From an uncultured virus (IMG/VR IMGVR_UViG_3300022555_000012) (taxonomy: Duplodnaviria > Heunggongvirae > Uroviricota > Caudoviricetes), in IMG/VR virus record IMGVR_UViG_3300022555_000012: 64,000 nt of DNA. One strand, written 5' to 3'. The notes under the pieces were generated by a model, which was given only the letters and a program-made list of their open reading frames with translations, was not told where the DNA came from and ran no database searches. The position numbers and the translations under genes are program-made. Positions within the stretch are counted from its first letter, which is position 1. Every line of letters starts with the position of its first letter. Below are positions 27,229 through 47,614 of this stretch, piece after piece.

Positions 27229-28110
27229 TCATATTTTTACTCCAAAATACCCGCACAAAAATTGCACGGACTCTTCAACTGTCTTATTTTGCGTATCAAC
27301 TGCCAACGCTGACTCACCTGCGGGAATATCATACGGTGCATCTACCCCGGTGAAGTTCTTAATCTTCCCCGCCCGTGCCTTCGCATACATCCCCTTCACA
27401 TCCCTCTTCTCACAAACATTAAGATAGCTCTCAGCATAGACGATCTTCACATTCTTCACGATCCCGCGAACAATGTCCCTCAGTTCCTTCGTCGGAGATA
27501 CAAAACTTGCCAAAACCACAGTCTTGTTACGATTGAACATCTCACAAGTCCAGGCCGCCCGTCTAAGATTCTCTTCCCTGCCACCGTCCACGAACCCGAG
27601 TCCCTGACATAGCCCCGTCCGAAGGTCATCCCCGTCCACCAGGACGACATTGTAACCCGCAGCCATTAACTTGACCCGGAACTCCTTTGCCAAGGTCGTC
27701 TTGCCCGAACATGGTAGCCCAGTGAACCACACCGTTGTCTCCAGCAACTTCAGATACTGTTCCACATCAGGATGCAGATTACCAGCCCCTTGCCCATTCC
27801 TCACCTTTGTCGCAGAGATCTCCTGCACATCCTTGGGAACCTCCATGTAGTTGATATCGTATCCAACTCCACGCCCCACATTGATACTCTCGATATCTGG
27901 GAACAACATCACCTCGACCTTGTCTCCGTATACCCGGTTAATCATCTCACGTCTCTGATCGTAGGTATATGGGTCACTGTCCGAAATCGGAGTGTCCCTA
28001 CAACCGATAATCACCCTCTTGCCGGCATTAACCGCCTGGTCAATGATACATTTGTGACCGTTATGGAACGGCTGAAATCTGCCGACAAACAATGCTGCTC
28101 TTTGTTTCAT
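27229..28110 (-). CDS. cysC: nucleotidyltransferase (HIGH-type) fused to adenylylsulfate kinase
   Basis: GRFQPFHNGH; WFTGLPCSGKTT; DGDDLR; RDVKGMYAKARAGKIKNFTGVDAPY. Confidence 0.88.
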   Translation of the reverse strand: MKQRAALFVGRFQPFHNGHKCIIDQAVNAGKRVIIGCRDTPISDSDPYTYDQRREMINRVYGDKVEVMLFPDIESINVGRGVGYDINYMEVPKDVQEISATKVRNGQGAGNLHPDVEQYLKLLETTVWFTGLPCSGKTTLAKEFRVKLMAAGYNVVLVDGDDLRTGLCQGLGFVDGGREENLRRAAWTCEMFNRNKTVVLASFVSPTKELRDIVRGIVKNVKIVYAESYLNVCEKRDVKGMYAKARAGKIKNFTGVDAPYDIPAGESALAVDTQNKTVEESVQFLCGYFGVKI

Positions 28111-28213: not shown

Positions 28214-28254
28214 TGGCGGGGAAGACAGGAGTCGAACCTGCACCGAACTGTTTA
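28214..28254 (-). pseudogene. 3' half of disrupted tRNA-Arg(CCT)
   Basis: TAAACAGT-TCGGT-GCAGG-TTCGACT-CCTGT-CTTCCCC-GCCA; pairs with the 5' half at 29021-29057. Confidence 0.85.
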
Positions 28255-28256
28255 CT

Positions 28257-28333: not shown

Positions 28334-28972
28334 TCACTTTAAAAGTTCAAAATTCCCTCTATATTTTTCAACATCAGTTCTCTCTGCATCTCCTATTGGG
28401 TCTCTCAATATCCATATTCTAAGACTGTTCCGCCCGTCAGCCACACTGTGAGGAAGAACATAAACACTGTCATTATCAGCACAATATCCTAAAAAGAAGT
28501 CAACCTCCTCTTTACTGTAAGAATGCCTAACAGCCTTCTTATTTGCTCCTCCCTTTCTGACTGAACAAAATAAGAACTCGTGACATCCACGAGCAACCGG
28601 ATAAATATACTTACATTGACACTTTACAACACTTCCATCTTTTTTCAGAACCAACAAGTCTATCGGAGTGTCCTCCGTCATTGGTTTGAAAACCTTAACT
28701 CCTCCGAACATCAACCTCGCACAAATCATCTGCCTTGCCGCTTCACCGATATCGGTCTTTGACAATCCAGGTCTCTCTTTTGCCACTATCTGTTCTACAA
28801 CCCGACGACCTGGAGCCGAACGCAACACCTTCGACGAATCACACCCTTTAATAATATTCGCCATCGTTGACTTTGATCGTCCATACTTTTTGAGTAACTG
28901 TCCAAGTGTCAGTCCTCTCATTTCTCGATCTTCGACTATCTGCATCCTCACATCTTCTGATATTCTGTTCAT
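28334..28972 (-). CDS. HTH + PD-(D/E)XK homing-type endonuclease
   Basis: GE.....PIDLLV...KCQCK and Y....VDFF motifs; N-terminal HTH. Confidence 0.8.
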   Translation of the reverse strand: MNRISEDVRMQIVEDREMRGLTLGQLLKKYGRSKSTMANIIKGCDSSKVLRSAPGRRVVEQIVAKERPGLSKTDIGEAARQMICARLMFGGVKVFKPMTEDTPIDLLVLKKDGSVVKCQCKYIYPVARGCHEFLFCSVRKGGANKKAVRHSYSKEEVDFFLGYCADNDSVYVLPHSVADGRNSLRIWILRDPIGDAERTDVEKYRGNFELLK

Positions 28973-34094: not shown

Positions 34095-34134
34095 TGGAGC
34101 CGGAGACAGGACTTGAACCCTCAACCTTTGCATT
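34095..34134 (-). pseudogene. 3' half remnant of a tRNA-Thr-like gene
   Basis: GAGGG-TTCAAGT-CCTGT-CTCCGGC-TCCA immediately after the intact tRNA-Thr(CGT). Confidence 0.7.
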
Positions 34135-37184: not shown

Positions 37185-37207
37185 TGGTCTGACTGGAGGG
37201 ATTTGAA
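37185..37207 (-). pseudogene. 3' end of disrupted tRNA-Pro
   Basis: TTCAAAT-CCCTC-CAGTCAG-ACCA; acceptor pairs 6/7 with CTGACAG at 38062-38068. Confidence 0.75.
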
Positions 37208-37252
37208 ATTCATAATTCTTTTATATTCTTCCCTATGTGAGGAGATCATACA

Positions 37253-37942
37253 ATGCAACCCCTATACACAGAAGAAGAATTTGGGAATGCCAAATCCCGT
37301 CAACCTCTTCCCTTGAAATGTATTCATTGCCATAAGACATTCCATCGTCCAAAAAATAAAATTCAACTATCTCTCATTCCGAATCACAAAGGAGGATATA
37401 CTCACAATTACTGTTCCGCATCTTGTCAAAGACTTCATCAAAATCCGAAAGTTTTCGTAAAATGTGAATTTTGCAATAAGAAATTTACTAAACTCCCAAA
37501 TCAGATTAAAACAACGAAACACAACTTCTGTGATAAATCCTGTGCCGCCAAATACAACAATTCCCACAAAACTAAAGGAAATCGCATCTCTAAACTCGAA
37601 CTATGGCTCCAAGAACAACTCCCTATCCTCTACCCATCACTTGAATTTCACTTCAATCGTAAAGATGCTATCAACGGAGAACTCGACATATACATTCCTT
37701 CTCTCAAACTTGCCTTTGAATTGAATGGCATCTTCCACTATGAACCAATCTATGGCCCTGAAAAACTTTCCTCAATTCAAAACAATGATCTCCGTAAATC
37801 CCAGGCCTGTCTCGAACACAACATCGAACTCTGCCTGATTGATGTGTCCCATCAAATATACTTTAAGGAACAAACCTCTCTTAAATTTCTTAAAATCATC
37901 CAAGAAGTCATAAATATTAAAACTATCAGAATTTCGGAGTGA
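37253..37942 (+). CDS. Zn-finger repeat + Vsr/DUF559-like homing-type endonuclease (the only convincing + strand gene)
   Basis: CxxC/FC..SC repeats; SKLE...ELDIYIPSLKLAFELNGIFHY...D..K; RBS GAGGAG. Confidence 0.85.
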   Translation: MQPLYTEEEFGNAKSRQPLPLKCIHCHKTFHRPKNKIQLSLIPNHKGGYTHNYCSASCQRLHQNPKVFVKCEFCNKKFTKLPNQIKTTKHNFCDKSCAAKYNNSHKTKGNRISKLELWLQEQLPILYPSLEFHFNRKDAINGELDIYIPSLKLAFELNGIFHYEPIYGPEKLSSIQNNDLRKSQACLEHNIELCLIDVSHQIYFKEQTSLKFLKIIQEVINIKTIRISE

Positions 37943-38006
37943 CAGGCATCGAACCTGCAACCTTATGGTCCCAAACCACACGCTCTACCATTTGAGCTAC
38001 ACTCCG
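37934..38006 (-). tRNA. tRNA-Pro(TGG), intact replacement copy, no encoded CCA
   Basis: TGTGG-TTTGGGA-CCATA; acceptor CGGAGTG/CACTCCG. Confidence 0.9.
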
Positions 38007-38021
38007 GTCTTTTTATAAAAA

Positions 38022-38068
38022 TCCCTTGGTCCCAGGCCAAGTGCGATACCAGGCTTCGCTACTGTCAG
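38022..38068 (-). pseudogene. 5' two-thirds of disrupted tRNA-Pro(TGG)
   Basis: CTGACAG-TAGCGAAGCCTGGTATCGCA-CTTGG-CCTGGGA-CCAAG-GGA. Confidence 0.8.
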
Positions 38069-39666: not shown

Positions 39667-39734
39667 GAGAGGTACTCTATCCTTTAAGCTATTCCTTCTT
39701 GCGAAGGTTCTGGATTCGAACCAGGCCCCCTCTC
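39667..39734 (-). ncRNA. circularly permuted tRNA-like element A
   Basis: GAGAGG / T-arm CCTGG-TTCGAAT-CCAGA / CCTTC-GCAA-GAAGG / D-arm TAGCTTAAAGGATAGAGTA / CCTCTC. Confidence 0.8.
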
Positions 39735-39736
39735 TG

Positions 39737-39813
39737 TGGTCGGAGAAACAGGATTTGAACCTGCGACCCTTTCGTCCCGAACGAAATGCTCTACCAGTCT
39801 GAGCTATTCTCCG
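39737..39813 (-). tRNA. tRNA-Pro(CGG)
   Basis: TTTCG-TTCGGGA-CGAAA; CCA. Confidence 0.93.
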
Positions 39814-40493: not shown

Positions 40494-40681
40494 GTGTCAA
40501 GTGGGATTTGAACCCACATTCTCCCCTGCCGAACTCGACGTTCATCGGGGACGAGCTATTCCCAATCCTGCCATGCAGGATTTCTTCCCTACACCACTCT
40601 CCGGAACACCGCCCCAGCACCCTGTGGATGCCTTAATTTGGGCTGTCCTCGCCGGTATTCATTCCCGGTTGCTCTATTGAC
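40494..40681 (-). ncRNA. long structured RNA ending in a tRNA T-arm
   Basis: GTGGG-TTCAAAT-CCCAC-TTGAC can pair to GTCAA right after the tRNA-Ala CCA; internal AATCCTGC/GCAGGATT and TCCCC/GGGGA stems. Confidence 0.45.
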
Positions 40682-40756
40682 TGGTGGAGCGTAGGAGACT
40701 TGAACTCCTACTTCCTCGTTGCGAACGAGAGGTGCTACCATTATCACTAACGCCCC
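40682..40756 (-). tRNA. tRNA-Ala(CGC), intact replacement copy
   Basis: TCTCG-TTCGCAA-CGAGG; G3.U70 pair; CCA. Confidence 0.9.
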
Positions 40757-41286
40757 AATCTATTCTTTCTATGTTTCCGGCCATTACCACGATTCAAATT
40801 TCCATATGTCGGTGTAATTGAATGACAACAAGGACATATAAATTCGAGATTTTCAGGTCTATGTCGTTCTGGATTTCCGTCCTTATGATGTGCCGTTAAT
40901 GGAACCCTCCCAGTTACAGGATTTACCATCGACCAATTACATCTTTCTCCACTCGGAAGTATCGCCTCGCAAGTCCCCCCGGATCTTTCAAATAACCATC
41001 TCCGAACGTGTTCTGAAATTATACTACTGTTTCCTCCAGGAATTTCTCCATTCAACCACTTTCGGATAAACTCATCATACTGATATTGCAACTGACAATC
41101 CGTATCACAAAACTTTCGAGAACTCTTTATCGTTATCAATTCACCACAAGAAAGACAATTAATCCTTATTTTACCCGTTCCTTTTCGATTATTGTTATGA
41201 GTTGCCGAACAAACCCTACAACAAAATACTTGGTCCGCTCTCTTAGGACTAAAAGTATCCTTGCAATTCAAACAGATTTTTTCCAT
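40747..41286 (-). CDS. HNH homing endonuclease
   Basis: PLTAHHKDGNPERHRPENLEFICPCCHS; Cys-rich N-terminal repeats. Confidence 0.85.
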   Translation of the reverse strand: MEKICLNCKDTFSPKRADQVFCCRVCSATHNNNRKGTGKIRINCLSCGELITIKSSRKFCDTDCQLQYQYDEFIRKWLNGEIPGGNSSIISEHVRRWLFERSGGTCEAILPSGERCNWSMVNPVTGRVPLTAHHKDGNPERHRPENLEFICPCCHSITPTYGNLNRGNGRKHRKNRLGR

Positions 41287-41479: not shown

Positions 41480-41555
41480 TGGTGGAGAAGACCGGGATCG
41501 AACCGGCCACCCTCACAATGCCATTGTGATGCTCTACCAGATGAGCTACTTCCCC
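41480..41555 (-). tRNA. tRNA-Ala(GGC)
   Basis: TCACA-ATGGCAT-TGTGA; G3.U70 pair; CCA. Confidence 0.92.
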
Positions 41556-41896
41556 AAAACCTTATCACCCTTCTTCTGATTACACGGATAACACGCGATC
41601 ACAATGTTCTTCGGGTCCAACTCCGGTCCACCCCTTGACTTCGGGATCACATGATCCAATGTCGCCAACTTCCTCATCTGTGCCTTCGTTGCATCATCGG
41701 GAACCTCTGGAACCAGCCCTGTCGCCTTACAGTAGTAACAAACCAAGTCACCTACCTCTGCCATCGCCTTATTCAGATGAGCCTCCCTGAAGGCTACCCA
41801 GGTCGCTCTCTCTTGTTCCTGGAGTTTCCTCACCAACAATACCCTGGCCGCCATTGAATGAGGATGTGGGTCCTCTACCCTTACTCTGTGTCTCAT
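41546..41896 (-). CDS. small HNH endonuclease
   Basis: CYYC...ATLDHVIPKSRGG....NIVIACYPCNQKKG. Confidence 0.85.
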   Translation of the reverse strand: MRHRVRVEDPHPHSMAARVLLVRKLQEQERATWVAFREAHLNKAMAEVGDLVCYYCKATGLVPEVPDDATKAQMRKLATLDHVIPKSRGGPELDPKNIVIACYPCNQKKGDKVLGK

Positions 41897-41997: not shown

Positions 41998-42073
41998 TGG
42001 TGGAGATTACGGGGATCGAACCCGTCACCCCTAGCTTGCAAAGCTAGTGCTCTACCAAATGAGCTAAACCCCC
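41998..42073 (-). tRNA. tRNA-Ala(TGC)
   Basis: CTAGC-TTTGCAA-GCTAG; CCA. Confidence 0.93.
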
Positions 42074-42378
42074 AAACTATCTACTTCTGCCTTCAAACCT
42101 GCTGCCGTCAACTCACTCACATGCTTCACGGCCTTCTCGTGATCCTCAACCTGGGCAATCGTCTTCCCAGTCTTATGAGCATCCAACGTAATCTTGTCAG
42201 CCATTCCCTCGGAATAACTGAACACTTGCATAAGTGTCTGAACCACATGCTGATAAGTGTTATGATCATCATCAAATAGAATGACCTGACACTGTTCTCC
42301 GGAATCAAAGATTCTGTGATCAAGTAACGGATGAACTTCATCCAATCTTCCGGTTCTCTTTATAACAGTGGTGCTCAT
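42064..42378 (-). CDS. clpS: ATP-dependent Clp protease adaptor ClpS-like
   Basis: VILFDDDHNTYQHVVQTL..VF.....A..IT..AH..G. Confidence 0.85.
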   Translation of the reverse strand: MSTTVIKRTGRLDEVHPLLDHRIFDSGEQCQVILFDDDHNTYQHVVQTLMQVFSYSEGMADKITLDAHKTGKTIAQVEDHEKAVKHVSELTAAGLKAEVDSLGV

Positions 42379-42430
42379 AAAAACATTATACTCCACAAAG
42401 TGTTTGGATTGAAAAAAAGAATTGGAGGAA

Positions 42431-42603
42431 TGAGGAAGAGGCAACGAGATTGCGAGTAAGACTTGGTGTTCTTACCCCCGGAATCTACCCCTCGGCCAAG
42501 GGATCTCCCAGGACTGGGCCGTAGCCCATACATTGACCATCTGTCACCGCACTCTCGAATGCCAATGAGCCTTTTCAGACTCTGCATTCATACTACTTCC
42601 TCA
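42431..42603 (-). ncRNA. candidate structured ncRNA (~170 nt)
   Basis: TGAGGAAG/CTTCCTCA closing stem; GAGAGTGCG/CGCAATCTC inner stem. Confidence 0.4.
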
Positions 42604-43654: not shown

Positions 43655-43741
43655 TGGCGTTCCCGAGAGGATTTGAACCTCTATTTGCTTTCGCCCTTCA
43701 GATTCGTAGTCTGACATGCTATCCAATTACACCACGGGAAC
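43655..43741 (-). tRNA. tRNA-Arg(ACG) with extended variable arm
   Basis: TCAGA-CTACGAA-TCTGA; variable region AGGGCGAAAGCAAAT; CCA. Confidence 0.87.
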
Positions 43742-43743
43742 AT

Positions 43744-43799
43744 AACCTGCAACCTTCTGATTCGTAGTCAGAAACTCTATCCAATTGAGCTACGGGTAC
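43744..43799 (-). pseudogene. truncated tRNA-Arg(ACG), broken in the T-loop
   Basis: GTACCCG...TCTGA-CTACGAA-TCAGA-AGGTT-GCAGG-TT, then 2 nt and the intact copy. Confidence 0.85.
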
Positions 43800-43933
43800 A
43801 TTATACGCTTTTGGTGAGATTTAATTCTCACATTGAGAGGGATATCGAAAACTCTGGGGATGGGTCCCGATGCCTTGATAGTGCCCTTCTCTTCCGAACT
43901 TCACTCGGCGGTTTATTTTTCCTACAAAAGCTT

Positions 43934-44355: not shown

Positions 44356-45087
44356 CTAAACTCCTGCCTCTTGATATTGTCTTATCCATTTTTTTACAGC
44401 ATTACCGGAAACACCATACTTAATTCCAATTGCCTCTCTACTCATCTTTTTCATATCCTCTATCAATAATTCAAATGATGGTCGTTCTACTTTCCTGCTT
44501 CTAATACGACTGCACCTTGTACACCATAATGCTCCCCTCGTAATAACACATCCGCAATCCTGACACTTAATTTCGCGTTTTATCATTTTAACGCCGAGGT
44601 TTTTTCTTCCGCAAAAAGTGTTTTGCTGGCTATTGCAGTGAGGGCAAAGAATCCTCAAATTTTCAATCCTATTATCATTGTTTATCCCGTTTTCATGGTC
44701 GATAACTAAAATGAGTTCTTTTCCATTCCATTCTGGTAGTTGACCACACACATAACAAACATTTCTAAGCATCCCCTCTTTGAGTAGTCTATTTTTAAGG
44801 TTGGCCCTACTATATTCACAATTCTCAATAAGGACTTCTGATAATGGGATTCGAGATAATACCCTCTTTCTTCCTTTTGAAGACGACCTTCCCAACCAAT
44901 GAGAAACGTCAACTTTCAATCTTCTCACTTCAGCATGAACCGTTCTATAATTCCCTCCTTTTGGGACAAGTCCCATTCTTCGAAGCGTATCCGCTATTGA
45001 CATGCTATTTTTAGCCGCCTCTCTAAACTCCTCATCTGTCCATCTTTTCTTTCTCATTTTCCTCCTGTGGTTGAACTGTCTCCACAT
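44356..45087 (-). CDS. HNH homing endonuclease with C-terminal HTH
   Basis: LVIDHENGINNDNRIENLRILCPHCNSQ. Confidence 0.9.
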   Translation of the reverse strand: MWRQFNHRRKMRKKRWTDEEFREAAKNSMSIADTLRRMGLVPKGGNYRTVHAEVRRLKVDVSHWLGRSSSKGRKRVLSRIPLSEVLIENCEYSRANLKNRLLKEGMLRNVCYVCGQLPEWNGKELILVIDHENGINNDNRIENLRILCPHCNSQQNTFCGRKNLGVKMIKREIKCQDCGCVITRGALWCTRCSRIRSRKVERPSFELLIEDMKKMSREAIGIKYGVSGNAVKKWIRQYQEAGV

Positions 45088-46160: not shown

Positions 46161-46299
46161 TTTTGAGATGCCGAAAACCGCAAAGGGCGTGTTTCTCTGC
46201 TATCCTACCATTAGATGACCGACCCGAAGGCCGGACGGGATTCGAACCCGCATTTTCAGTTTGGAATTGAAGTATCCCTTTGCTGAAGGTATCTCAAAA
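46161..46299 (-). ncRNA. Y RNA (YrlA)-like RNA: long terminal stem carrying permuted tRNA-like domain C
   Basis: GAGATACC-TTCA-GCAAAGGG-ATACTTC [T-arm; CCGGCC-TTCG-GGTCGG; D-arm] CCCTTTGC-GGTTTTC-GGCATCTC. Confidence 0.7.
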
Positions 46300-46955: not shown

Positions 46956-47440
46956 TAATTGGCTATCAACCCGTACAGTATCACTACTGCATGCTGATTC
47001 ATTCCGCAGTTCCCCACGTTGAACAATGCCGCCAATCAGAGCAAATAATGCGAGTTGACAGGATTTTTACCTGCTCCGGTGTGGATTTGATGTCCAGAGG
47101 CCGGTTTCCAACACATCCCGTAATCTCCGTATACGAAGACTCCAAGATAACATCTCGTGCTAACTCATTGGGGGATTGGAGGCGGCCGATTACTTCGCCT
47201 TCCCCGAAGCCTTCAGCCTCGTGTACTCTTATACGAACAATCCCAGTTCTTTCGTCCGAAGGGTTTTCAACCCTCAACTCCACACCTTTCGGCAGGGCTT
47301 TCATTTCGGTTTTGAAGCCTACGATCTCTTAAGCTACGGACAAATCATAACTTGGTGGACTACTCAGAAGGGTTTATACGACCTAGCCAAAGTCCTAATA
47401 ATTTAGACTTTGACAGTAGTCAATACCTTCCTTTCGCCCT

Positions 47441-47532: not shown

Positions 47533-47599
47533 GCCGATGTCCTACCATTAGACGACCGGCCCTTTCGGTCCGGACGGGATTCGAACCCGCATTTTCAGC
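47533..47599 (-). ncRNA. circularly permuted tRNA-like element D
   Basis: GCTGA-AAAT-GCGGG-TTCGAAT-CCCGT-CCGGACC-GAAA-GGGCCGG-TCGTCTAATGGTAGGACA-TCGGC. Confidence 0.8.
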
Positions 47600-47614
47600 A
47601 CAGCCTTAAATAAA

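What the first reader, a model, noticed from the sequence alone, without database searches (positions are those of the whole stretch)
37185..38068. Second cassette: tRNA-Pro(TGG) split by a new tRNA-Pro(TGG) plus an inverted Vsr-like endonuclease
Seen: an old tRNA-Pro runs to its variable loop (38022-38068), followed by an intact diverged tRNA-Pro(TGG), a + strand Zn-finger/Vsr-like nuclease whose stop codon overlaps the new tRNA's acceptor stem, and the old T-loop, acceptor and CCA (37185-37207). The nuclease family, orientation and breakpoint all differ from the Arg cassette. Inference: the destroy-and-replace strategy arose or was acquired independently.
Basis: partly seen in the sequence, partly recalled or inferred. 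Interest (0 to 1): 0.82.

Follow-up and report, generated by a model that had tools for sequence, protein, structure and literature searches.

The report
tRNA-cutting homing nuclease with spare tRNA
A selfish nuclease gene of a large, unnamed phage family has landed in the T-loop of a proline tRNA gene, broken it in two, and brought a working proline tRNA with it.

Summary
On the - strand lie, in order: nt 1-47 of an old tRNA-Pro(TGG) (38068-38021), a 14-nt spacer, an intact different tRNA-Pro(TGG) (38006-37934), the antisense of a 229-aa ORF (37253-37942, +; its end overlaps the tRNA by 9 nt), a 45-nt leader, and nt 54-76 of the old tRNA (37207-37185). Six nt (48-53) are lost.

The ORF has two CCCC zinc modules and a C-terminal domain whose best structural match is the homing endonuclease I-Bth0305I (Z 10.2), then Vsr.

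Its relatives (147 in IMG/VR, 3,634 protein clusters, none given a functional name among the 120 listed) sit antisense in phage tRNA arrays.
- 53 of 72 units abut the 3' end of a tRNA, of 28 different anticodons.
- 40 of 72 carry a T-loop motif just upstream of the start codon.
- 13 of 72 are flanked by a sharp 17-21-nt direct repeat, about T54-N73 of the abutting tRNA.

So the family inserts at the T-stem/T-loop boundary of tRNA genes and normally patches the tRNA. The window is a rarer outcome: a whole spare tRNA was carried in.

The closest known analogue is T4 SegB, from a different nuclease family. Cleavage and mobility are inferred. No empty site was found.

The parts
38021..38068 (-). 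Old tRNA-Pro(TGG), 5' piece, nt 1-47: acceptor 5' strand, D arm, anticodon arm, GGAT of the variable loop. Pseudogene: C32 C33.
   Evidence: Sequence. R1 hit at 38025-38059, model positions 10-44. Its D arm is identical to that of intact tRNA-Pro genes flanking the same 22-mer in 63 other metagenome loci.
38007..38020 (.). 14-nt spacer. Left end of the inserted 813-bp segment (37208-38020).
   Evidence: Sequence. It has no counterpart in the intact relatives of the old tRNA, which continue with C48 and the T stem.
37934..38006 (-). Intact cargo tRNA-Pro(TGG): C1-G72, A73, G37, T-loop TTCGATG, no encoded CCA.
   Evidence: ARAGORN; Rfam RF00005 at 63.9 bits; R1 at 57.8 bits. It is 57/74 identical to the resident tRNA-Pro(CGG) at 39737-39813 and 30/48 identical to the old piece.
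37253..37942 (+). Free-standing nuclease gene, 229 aa: two CCCC zinc modules (residues about 20-100) and a Vsr-like / I-Bth0305I-like nuclease domain (residues 110-225).
   Evidence: Pfam zf-FCS at 7.5e-8. PHROGs 559, 1271, 3339 and 9084, labelled 'HNH/homing endonuclease'. AF2 model with pLDDT 90. VIA-align matches: 3r3p_B Z 10.2, 3hrl_A Z 10.1, 1cw0_A Z 9.6. Invariant residues C23 C26 C54 C58 C71 C74 C93 C97 E143 D145 E156 N158 H162 K182 in 48 sequences.
37208..37252 (+). Leader of the nuclease gene (GAGGAG 8 nt before the ATG). Right end of the inserted segment.
   Evidence: Sequence. The only promoter-like match (37189-37216) is no better than chance: 5 found, 4.1 expected.
37185..37207 (-). 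Old tRNA-Pro(TGG), 3' piece, nt 54-76: T-loop, T-stem 3' strand, acceptor 3' strand, A73, CCA.
   Evidence: Sequence. It pairs 6/7 with the acceptor of the 5' piece. It starts at T54, like the fragments upstream of the family's other members.

Best explanation

Its family lives antisense inside the tRNA arrays of large uncultivated phages. Each gene abuts the 3' end of 'its' tRNA. On the other side it is bordered by a tRNA 3' piece that begins exactly at T54.

I infer that the enzyme recognises the near-palindromic T arm of tRNA genes and breaks them at or near 53|54, and that the break is repaired from a copy that carries the nuclease gene.
- When the donor's tRNA matches the target, the result is an intact tRNA, the nuclease gene and a displaced T54-N73(+CCA/CAA) piece.
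- In the window, the resident tRNA-Pro(TGG) was too unlike the donor's tRNA-Pro(TGG). The right end joined at the T-loop and the left end joined outside the donor tRNA. A whole spare tRNA plus the nuclease gene (813 bp) was therefore copied in, and nt 48-53 were lost.

The old gene is dead and decaying. The cargo tRNA supplies the function.

Shown: the anatomy, the fold, and the family-wide association and scars. Inferred: the cleavage site, the mobility, the repair route, and that the cargo tRNA is used.
For: Anatomy of the window.

Fold: I-Bth0305I catalytic domain Z 10.2 (rmsd 3.1, 98 of 98 residues aligned), NGO0050 Z 10.1, Vsr Z 9.6, on a model of pLDDT 90. Catalytic-type residues and 8 Cys are invariant in 48 sequences.

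Family, from 147 IMG/VR relatives of which 80 loci were kept:
- 66 of 72 non-redundant units have opposite-strand tRNAs within 3 kb; 1 has a same-strand tRNA.
- 53 of 72 have a tRNA 3' end within -75..+110 nt of the stop, against a mean of 10.2 (max 16) at random positions in the same arrays. These tRNAs carry 28 anticodons.
- The motif TTCRANNC occurs on the tRNA strand within 85 nt upstream of the ATG in 40 of 72 units. This compares with 7 on the other strand, 7 and 4 inside the ORF start, and 5.4 expected.
- An unbiased repeat scan found 13 of 72 units flanked by a 17-21-nt direct repeat scoring above 12, the 99th percentile of 355 shuffled pairs. Each repeat starts at (once 1 nt before) T54 of the tRNA next to the nuclease stop and ends between nt 70 and 74.
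- Of the 13 displaced copies, 11 are followed by CCA (6) or CAA (5). None of the 13 intact copies is.
- The fragment's acceptor strand pairs with the abutting tRNA in 15 of 53 units, against a control mean of 1 and max of 4.
- Abutting tRNAs have CCA after N73 in 12 of 51 cases, other tRNAs in 195 of 362.
- L047 is a chimera. Its 5' body pairs 7/7 with the displaced piece, but only 3/7 with the T arm/acceptor now attached to it.
- Closely related nucleases sit by different isotypes, e.g. two paralogues in L004 by Phe and Ser.

Precedent:
- SegB recognises 27 bp including the 11-bp T-psi-C element and drives inheritance of itself and neighbouring tRNA genes (PMC2330249, abstract and passages). 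Its motif is RAWTSGAAC (PMC13096335, sections 9, 10).
- I-Bth0305I is a homodimer that reads a 14-bp pseudopalindrome (PMC3239194, abstract and passages).
Against: - No cleavage data exist, and no empty-site allele was found. The only other copies of the locus (L091 100%, L098 99.98% identical) carry the same cassette. Flanking genes have no IMG/VR relatives.
- The three-piece arrangement is seen once in 72 units.
- Only 13 of 72 units show a clean repeat, and 32 of 72 lack the strict T-loop motif TTCRANNC upstream.
- Both ends of the T54-N73 repeat are sharper than simple recombination predicts. The 2-nt overhang of I-Bth0305I cannot make a 20-nt duplication.
- The abutting and cargo tRNAs keep a normal T arm, so self-immunity is unexplained.
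- The N-terminal half is not the NUMOD/HTH type of I-Bth0305I.
- The cargo tRNA is more like the resident tRNA-Pro(CGG) (57/74) than the old piece is. The cargo could therefore come from within this genome.
Confidence: 0.68

Rival explanations
1. The unit is a transposon-like element rather than a classical homing gene. The nuclease cuts the two strands of a tRNA gene about 20 nt apart, at 53|54 and 73|74. Insertion then creates a 20-bp target duplication (T54-N73), which by itself keeps the tRNA whole. The window would be an aberrant event.
For: Both repeat boundaries are sharp and nearly the same in 13 units on tRNAs of about ten isotypes. Close paralogues sit at different isotypes, each with a matching piece: L004 Ser, and L021/L027. 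SegB often cuts after CCA, at the 3' end of tRNA genes, although it binds the T arm (PMC2330249, passages).
Against: The prototype of the fold makes 2-nt 5' overhangs (PMC3239194, passages). The L047 chimera carries a foreign T arm/acceptor, which a pure target duplication cannot give. The window has no duplication at all.
Confidence: 0.2
2. The nuclease gene is a passenger. The old tRNA-Pro was split by unrelated illegitimate recombination or array shuffling, for instance driven by one of the HNH or other nucleases of the array. The neighbourhood is coincidence.
For: The array holds several other nuclease genes: HNH at 40747-41286, 41546-41896 and 44356-45087, and PDDEXK_5 at 28334-28972. It also holds other orphan tRNA pieces.
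Against: The 3' breakpoint (T54) and its distance from the ATG (45 nt) match the family-wide pattern: 40 of 72 units, positions mostly 23-49 nt. The association with an abutting tRNA is 5-fold above array background.
Confidence: 0.08
3. The main role is not selfish spread but phage benefit. The nuclease would be a SegB-like driver of recombination or amplification of tRNA genes, or a weapon against co-infecting phages. The fragments are scars of its breaks in its own genome.
For: SegB-dependent amplification of a tRNA+segB unit helps T6 escape a tRNA-cutting defence (PMC13096335, abstract and sections 7, 9, 12). The window's array has many pseudo-tRNAs and orphan T arms.
Against: No tandem amplification of the unit is seen in the window. 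This reading does not exclude homing, and nothing here tests fitness.
Confidence: 0.15
4. The split tRNA-Pro is still functional. The 813 bp would act as an intron, or the halves would be joined in trans.
For: The halves are collinear on one strand, and their acceptor strands pair 6/7.
Against: The T-stem 5' strand (nt 49-53) is absent at both junctions. U33 is replaced by C. No Rfam intron family hits the window; all 25 hits are tRNA. An intact tRNA of the same anticodon lies inside the segment.
Confidence: 0.02

Closest known systems
SegB of phage T4/T6 (free-standing GIY-YIG homing endonuclease in the tRNA gene cluster)
   Same: It is a free-standing nuclease gene inside a phage tRNA cluster and is associated with tRNAs of many isotypes. 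Its target includes the conserved T-psi-C element of tRNA genes. Its spread carries neighbouring tRNA genes along and removes the recipient's markers (PMC2330249 abstract and passages; PMC13096335 sections 9, 10).
   Different: The nuclease fold differs: no GIY-YIG match in Pfam or PHROGs, and a Vsr-like fold by structure. The gene is always antisense to the tRNAs and abuts a tRNA 3' end. A T54-N73 direct repeat, chimeric tRNAs and split tRNAs as scars are not mentioned in the parts of those papers I read.
I-Bth0305I and the EDxHD / Vsr-like homing endonuclease family (including free-standing members)
   Same: The C-terminal catalytic domain has the same fold (Z 10.2). The layout is also shared: an N-terminal DNA-binding part plus a C-terminal nuclease. 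Both are found in phages.
   Different: I-Bth0305I is intron-encoded in recA and has NUMOD/HTH motifs (PMC3239194). Here there are two CCCC zinc modules (zf-FCS), no intron, and the target is a tRNA gene. Sequence similarity to PDB chains is nil.
Integrase-type islands and prophages that integrate into the 3' part of tRNA genes (recalled knowledge)
   Same: The element carries or creates a copy of the tRNA's 3' part. The gene therefore stays whole, and a displaced 3' piece marks the far end.
   Different: There is no integrase. The element is about 0.8 kb with a single nuclease gene. The repeat starts at T54 and stops at N73.
'Fractured genes' split by Vsr-like or GIY-YIG homing genes and rescued by split inteins (PMC2677866, abstract only)
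   Same: A homing gene sits inside an essential gene without an intron, and the host function is rescued by another device.
   Different: The rescue here is a duplicated 3' part or a whole spare gene, not protein splicing. The host gene is an RNA gene.

Membership tests
EDxHD / Vsr-like homing endonucleases (I-Bth0305I type) | Vsr-like PD-(D/E)XK catalytic fold in the C-terminal domain | tested here: met
   VIA-align wide: 3r3p_B Z 10.2 (rmsd 3.1, 98 aligned); 1cw0_A (Vsr) Z 9.6. Foldseek alone was weak: best Vsr E 0.18, probability 0.87.
EDxHD / Vsr-like homing endonucleases (I-Bth0305I type) | The conserved acidic/His catalytic motif that names the family | tested here: inconclusive
   E143, D145, E156, N158, H162 and K182 are invariant in 48 sequences. 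I did not map them residue by residue onto the EDxHD motif.
EDxHD / Vsr-like homing endonucleases (I-Bth0305I type) | N-terminal NUMOD/HTH DNA-binding region | tested here: not met
   Pfam finds zf-FCS (7.5e-8) and no HTH/NUMOD. Eight Cys are invariant, in two CCCC sets.
EDxHD / Vsr-like homing endonucleases (I-Bth0305I type) | Site-specific DNA cleavage next to its own insertion site | not testable with these tools
   Needs purified protein and a tRNA-gene substrate.
Homing endonuclease gene (any family) | Presence/absence polymorphism at an otherwise homologous site | tested here: inconclusive
   No empty allele was found: L091 and L098 carry the cassette; there are no IMG/VR relatives of the flanks; scans for two other units gave only the same contig or a non-syntenic intact tRNA.
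SegB-like (GIY-YIG) tRNA-cluster homing endonucleases | GIY-YIG catalytic domain | tested here: not met
   No GIY-YIG family appears among the Pfam or PHROGs hits. The fold is Vsr-like.
SegB-like (GIY-YIG) tRNA-cluster homing endonucleases | Target includes the T-psi-C element of tRNA genes | tested here: inconclusive
   Indirect only: displaced pieces start at T54 in the 13 clean repeats, and a T-loop motif lies upstream of the ATG in 40 of 72 units.
tRNA-integrating islands (integrase type) | Tyrosine or serine recombinase encoded by the element | tested here: not met
   The 813-bp segment encodes only the nuclease and a tRNA.
tRNA-integrating islands (integrase type) | Direct repeat of the tRNA 3' part at both ends | tested here: met
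   Met for 13 of 72 family units. Not met in the window, where the two flanking pieces are halves, not repeats.
Intron-containing or split tRNA genes | All cloverleaf parts present, so that joining gives a functional tRNA | tested here: not met
   Nt 48-53 are missing. There was 1 odd ARAGORN call in 2,535 joins. The old piece has C33. No intron family was found.

The most novel reading that the evidence does not exclude
A very large, unnamed family of zinc-module/Vsr-like nucleases forms an intron-less mobile element. It invades tRNA genes precisely at the T-stem/T-loop boundary and keeps them alive with a 20-nt T54-N73 patch, either made at insertion or carried along. This would be a third solution, beside introns and inteins, to inserting into an essential gene. 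When the patch does not fit, the tRNA dies (L047) or a whole spare tRNA is delivered (this window). That would make the family a major shaper of phage tRNA arrays.
Probability: 0.35. Interest if true: 0.8.

Novelty: new variant of a known kind. Interest (0 to 1): 0.62.

Why it matters
Phage tRNA arrays are large, fluid and full of pseudo-tRNAs, and what shapes them is poorly known.

This case points to a huge uncharacterised nuclease family: 3,634 clusters at E <= 1e-10, none given a functional name among the 120 listed, and almost absent from cultured phages (5 partial hits). It may be a tRNA-gene-specific selfish element with a precise insertion point and a built-in repair patch.

If confirmed by cleavage mapping, it would:
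- extend the SegB paradigm to a second nuclease fold;
- explain many orphan tRNA pieces and chimeric tRNAs in huge-phage genomes;
- give annotators a simple signature (a T54-N73 repeat around an antisense nuclease gene);
- offer a natural enzyme family that reads a universal tRNA-gene motif.

Tried and rejected
- Virtual excision with ARAGORN. Window: 2,535 joins gave one odd 83-nt call. All loci: 328,440 joins with filler for the lost T-stem strand. ARAGORN accepted almost any 5' body with any fragment, so the method did not discriminate and I dropped it.
- Loose split-tRNA finder: 30 of 60 units had candidates, against 22-33 in 20 permutations. No signal apart from the window.
- Partner search over 420 nt: 34 of 72 units had some partner, against a control mean of 23.9 (max 30). 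Only the 11 'own 3' end pairs' cases, L047 and the window are credible.
- R1 search of 15 loci: many low-scoring full-length matches, not usable for calling fragments.
- Empty-site searches. The 26-nt old-tRNA pattern in IMG/VR gave 0 hits. Flanking proteins gave 0 relatives. INPHARED megablast gave no match. The L031 and L060 patterns gave only the same contig, or one non-syntenic intact tRNA-Gly.
- PDB sequence search: only chance-level hits (E >= 0.056).
- T-loop 'immunity' variants in abutting tRNAs: no clear difference; the registers were partly off by one.
- Promoter/terminator scan: at chance level.
- Inverted repeats upstream of the ATG: 20 of 72 units, against a shuffle mean of 7.7, but only about 5 involve the T-loop motif.
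- Homodimer prediction of the nuclease domain: no answer.
- The earlier-findings tool and the whole genome were not available.
Full report
**1. What is in the window**

The window is phage-like. ARAGORN finds 27 tRNA genes, all on the - strand between 26.7 and 47.5 kb. Rfam confirms 25 of them and reports no other RNA family.

Nuclease genes lie between the tRNAs: HNH at 40747-41286, 41546-41896 and 44356-45087, and PDDEXK_5 at 28334-28972. The exact protein of the finding is on record on 16 contigs, the longest 342 kb.

Read on the - strand, the finding's region holds:

| Coordinates | Content |
|---|---|
| 38161-38085 | tRNA-Met |
| (16 nt) | gap |
| 38068-38021 | old tRNA piece: CTGACAG TA GCGA AGCCTGGTA TCGC A CTTGG CCTGGGA CCAAG GGAT |
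| (14 nt) | spacer |
| 38006-37934 | complete tRNA-Pro(TGG) |
| 37942-37253 | antisense of a 229-aa ORF; its last 9 nt overlap the tRNA |
| (45 nt) | leader |
| 37207-37185 | TTCAAAT CCCTC CAGTCAG A CCA |

**2. The two outer pieces are one former tRNA-Pro(TGG)**

The acceptor strands pair at 6 of 7 positions.

A 22-nt stretch of the D arm occurs exactly in 65 metagenome loci. Two of them (L091 100%, L098 99.98% identical over 4.0-4.6 kb) are the same phage with the same cassette. In 59 of the other 63 the match lies in or beside an ARAGORN-called tRNA, and nearly all the full-length flanking sequences read as intact tRNA-Pro genes with the same D arm. Several of them share the same anticodon stem. 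They continue ...CCAAG GGATC GNNGG TTCAAAT CC...ACCA.

Against these relatives:
- The 5' piece ends at nt 47.
- The 3' piece begins at T54.
- Six nt are gone: C48 and the T-stem 5' strand.
- The old piece has C32 C33 where most of the relatives listed have T at those positions, and an A6/A67 mismatch. I read these as decay after inactivation.

No simple join restores a cloverleaf: 1 odd call among 2,535 joins. My tRNA covariance model (R1) finds the D and anticodon arms at 38025-38059 (10.4 bits, E 0.39).

**3. The inner tRNA**

The inner tRNA is sound, at 63.9 bits with Rfam and 57.8 bits with R1. It is a different gene from the old one:
- 30/48 identical to the old 5' piece;
- 57/74 identical to the resident tRNA-Pro(CGG) at 39737-39813.

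It has no encoded CCA. N73 is followed directly by the ORF's antisense.

**4. The protein**

- Pfam gives zf-FCS (7.5e-8).
- PHROGs gives families labelled HNH or homing endonuclease (7e-14 and weaker).
- In an alignment of 48 family members, eight Cys forming two CCCC sets are invariant, as are E143, D145, E156, N158, H162 and K182.
- An AlphaFold2 model has pLDDT 90.
- Foldseek gave nothing at E <= 0.001, but Vsr and the Vsr-like PvuRts1I/AbaSI are among its top rows.
- The search that does not lean on Foldseek puts residues 110-225 on the I-Bth0305I catalytic domain (3r3p_B: Z 10.2, rmsd 3.1, 98 aligned), NGO0050 (Z 10.1) and Vsr (Z 9.6). These are three of the only four chains with Z >= 8 among 48,161.

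The nearest solved relative is a homing endonuclease.

**5. The family**

IMG/VR holds 147 relatives, of which 80 loci were fetched. The protein collection holds 3,634 clusters at E <= 1e-10; among the 120 listed the only source names are 'hypothetical protein' and one 'ribosomal protein L44E'. GenBank phages give only 5 partial hits.

After removing duplicates and units at locus ends, 72 units remain.

| Measure | Observed | Control |
|---|---|---|
| Opposite-strand tRNAs within 3 kb | 66 of 72 | 1 of 72 has a same-strand tRNA |
| tRNA 3' end within -75..+110 nt of the stop | 53 of 72 (28 anticodons) | mean 10.2, max 16 in 200 random draws in the same arrays |
| TTCRANNC on the tRNA strand within 85 nt upstream of the ATG | 40 of 72, mostly 23-49 nt away | 7 on the other strand; 7 and 4 in the first 85 nt of the ORF; 5.4 expected from background |

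Only 4 of the 40 T-loop motifs lie under an ARAGORN call.

**6. The scars**

A repeat scan that assumes nothing about tRNAs compared the 120 nt upstream of each ATG with the 340 nt around each stop. Thirteen of 72 units score above 12, the 99th percentile of 355 shuffled pairs (control max 18).

All 13 repeats have the same shape:
- They begin at (once 1 nt before) T54 of the tRNA next to the nuclease stop.
- They run 17-21 nt, ending between nt 70 and 74, most often at the discriminator N73.
- In the intact copy, G53 precedes the repeat and element sequence follows it.
- In the displaced copy, element sequence precedes it, and CCA (6), CAA (5) or another triplet (2) follows.
- None of the 13 intact copies is followed by CCA or CAA.

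The tRNAs involved are Arg, His, Met (two), Ile(TAT), Pro(TGG), a Pro-like tRNA, Gly, Lys, a CTA suppressor and others.

Independent checks agree:
- The fragment's acceptor strand pairs with the abutting tRNA's 5' end in 15 of 53 units, against a control mean of 1 and max of 4 in 200 permutations. A few of the 15 have atypical T-loops and may be chance.
- Abutting tRNAs carry CCA after N73 in 12 of 51 cases, other tRNAs in 195 of 362.

L047 is a chimera. A Met-like 5' body (acceptor ACCGATA) pairs 7/7 with the displaced piece (TATCGGT). The T arm and acceptor strand now attached to it (…CTCGT TACCCCA) pair only 3/7 with it. In that unit, the element seems to have brought the 3' part of another tRNA and killed the target.

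A quick tree, with many weak forks, puts close nuclease relatives beside different isotypes. One example is two paralogues in a single phage (L004) beside Phe and Ser.

**7. Reading**

The family inserts at the T-stem/T-loop boundary of tRNA genes. Three outcomes are seen:

| Outcome | Description | Units |
|---|---|---|
| (a) Patched | tRNA intact, plus a displaced T54-N73 piece | at least 13 |
| (b) Chimeric | dead tRNA | L047 |
| (c) Three-piece | a whole spare tRNA carried into a broken one | the window, once in 72 |

The T arm of a tRNA gene is a near-palindrome with the core TTCGAA. The prototype of this fold is a homodimer that reads a 14-bp pseudopalindrome centred on its cut (PMC3239194, abstract and passages).

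T4 SegB belongs to another nuclease family. It recognises 27 bp that include the 11-bp T-psi-C element, cuts many tRNA genes at their 3' ends, and drives inheritance of itself and neighbouring tRNA genes at the cost of the recipient's markers (PMC2330249, abstract and passages). Its cleavage motif is RAWTSGAAC, and it is widely linked with tRNAs of many isotypes (PMC13096335, sections 7, 9, 10, 12).

I therefore take the present family to be a functional analogue of SegB with a different fold and a more intimate, in-gene insertion.

For the window I infer the following:
- A break occurred at the T-loop of the resident tRNA-Pro(TGG).
- The right end joined at the T-loop.
- The left end found no usable homology in the diverged donor tRNA. 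It joined 14 nt upstream of the donor tRNA, with the loss of nt 48-53.

**8. What remains open**

- The enzyme's cut sites are unknown.
- It is not clear how a repeat with two sharp ends arises on each new tRNA. Options are a staggered double cut, one-sided repair, or a carried patch later corrected. The 2-nt overhang of I-Bth0305I does not explain it, while the L047 chimera argues for a carried patch.
- It is unexplained how intact abutting tRNAs escape cutting. Their T-loops look normal.
- It is unknown whether the cargo came from another phage or from this genome.
- No empty site was found.
- The dimer prediction gave no answer.
- Literature searches turned up no description of this family or of the T54-N73 repeat. 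That covers only the held library, and I read only the papers named above.

**9. Verdict**

- Observation: confirmed.
- Interpretation: partly supported. The 'destroy and replace' outcome is real here, but it is a by-product of a family whose usual mode is 'split and patch'.
- Novelty: a new variant of a known kind, the tRNA-cluster homing endonucleases.
- Interest: 0.62.

Noticed in passing
window 43655-43800 (- strand): A tRNA-Arg(ACG) 5' portion (43800->~43744) stops inside its T-loop, after GCAGG TT. Two nt later a second, complete tRNA-Arg(ACG) with CCA begins (43741->43655). ARAGORN calls both as overlapping genes. R1 gives 26.5 and 55.3 bits.
   Followed up: partly
window 46200-46262 and 47540-47602 (- strand): Two similar motifs read like a permuted tRNA: a T arm (GCGGG TTCGAAT CCCGT), then a closed acceptor-like hairpin (CCGGCC TTCG GGTCGG, versus CCGGACC GAAA GGGCCGG in the second copy), then a D-arm-like GTC(A/G)TCTAATGGTAGGA. 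R1 scores the T arms at 16.2 bits. There is no Rfam hit.
   Followed up: partly
window 40501-40522, 39710-39724, 34106-34127, 28214-28256, 47169-47243, 47248-47343 (- strand): Further orphan T arms and low-scoring pseudo-tRNAs in the array (R1, 8-18 bits). The one at 28214-28256 is a T arm plus acceptor strand plus GCCA, lying between two tRNA-Arg genes and next to the PDDEXK_5 nuclease gene.
   Followed up: no
L014:2950-2994 (upstream of the nuclease ATG): A 44-nt perfect palindrome made of the displaced tRNA 3' piece and its inverted copy (ATAGTAGTCAGATTCGAAAT|ATTTCGAATCTGACTACTAT with TTAA centre). Shorter palindromes with TTCGAA half-sites occur in L052, L060, L067 and L072.
   Followed up: partly
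L008:3740-3870 and L075:3655-3790 (- strand): The tRNAs abutting the nuclease carry long internal insertions (about 40-60 nt) that ARAGORN does not resolve. Many ARAGORN calls of 84-97 nt for normally short isotypes (Pro, Ile-TAT, Lys, Asn, Met) are scattered through the loci.
   Followed up: no
L037:3001-3669 (+): The nuclease homologue has one in-frame stop, at a variable position of the conserved NNDxRK stretch. Several loci (L010, L022, L047, L062) hold tRNAs with anticodon CTA. This may point to stop-codon reassignment in some of these phages.
   Followed up: no
all fetched loci: After the discriminator, 195 of 362 array tRNAs encode CCA and 53 have CAA. About nine in ten trailers start with C.
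   Followed up: no
window 27229-28110 (-) and 42064-42444 (-): Genes inside the tRNA array include a cytidylyltransferase-like/APS-kinase fusion (PF01467 + PF01583) and a ClpS-like adaptor (PF02617).
   Followed up: no
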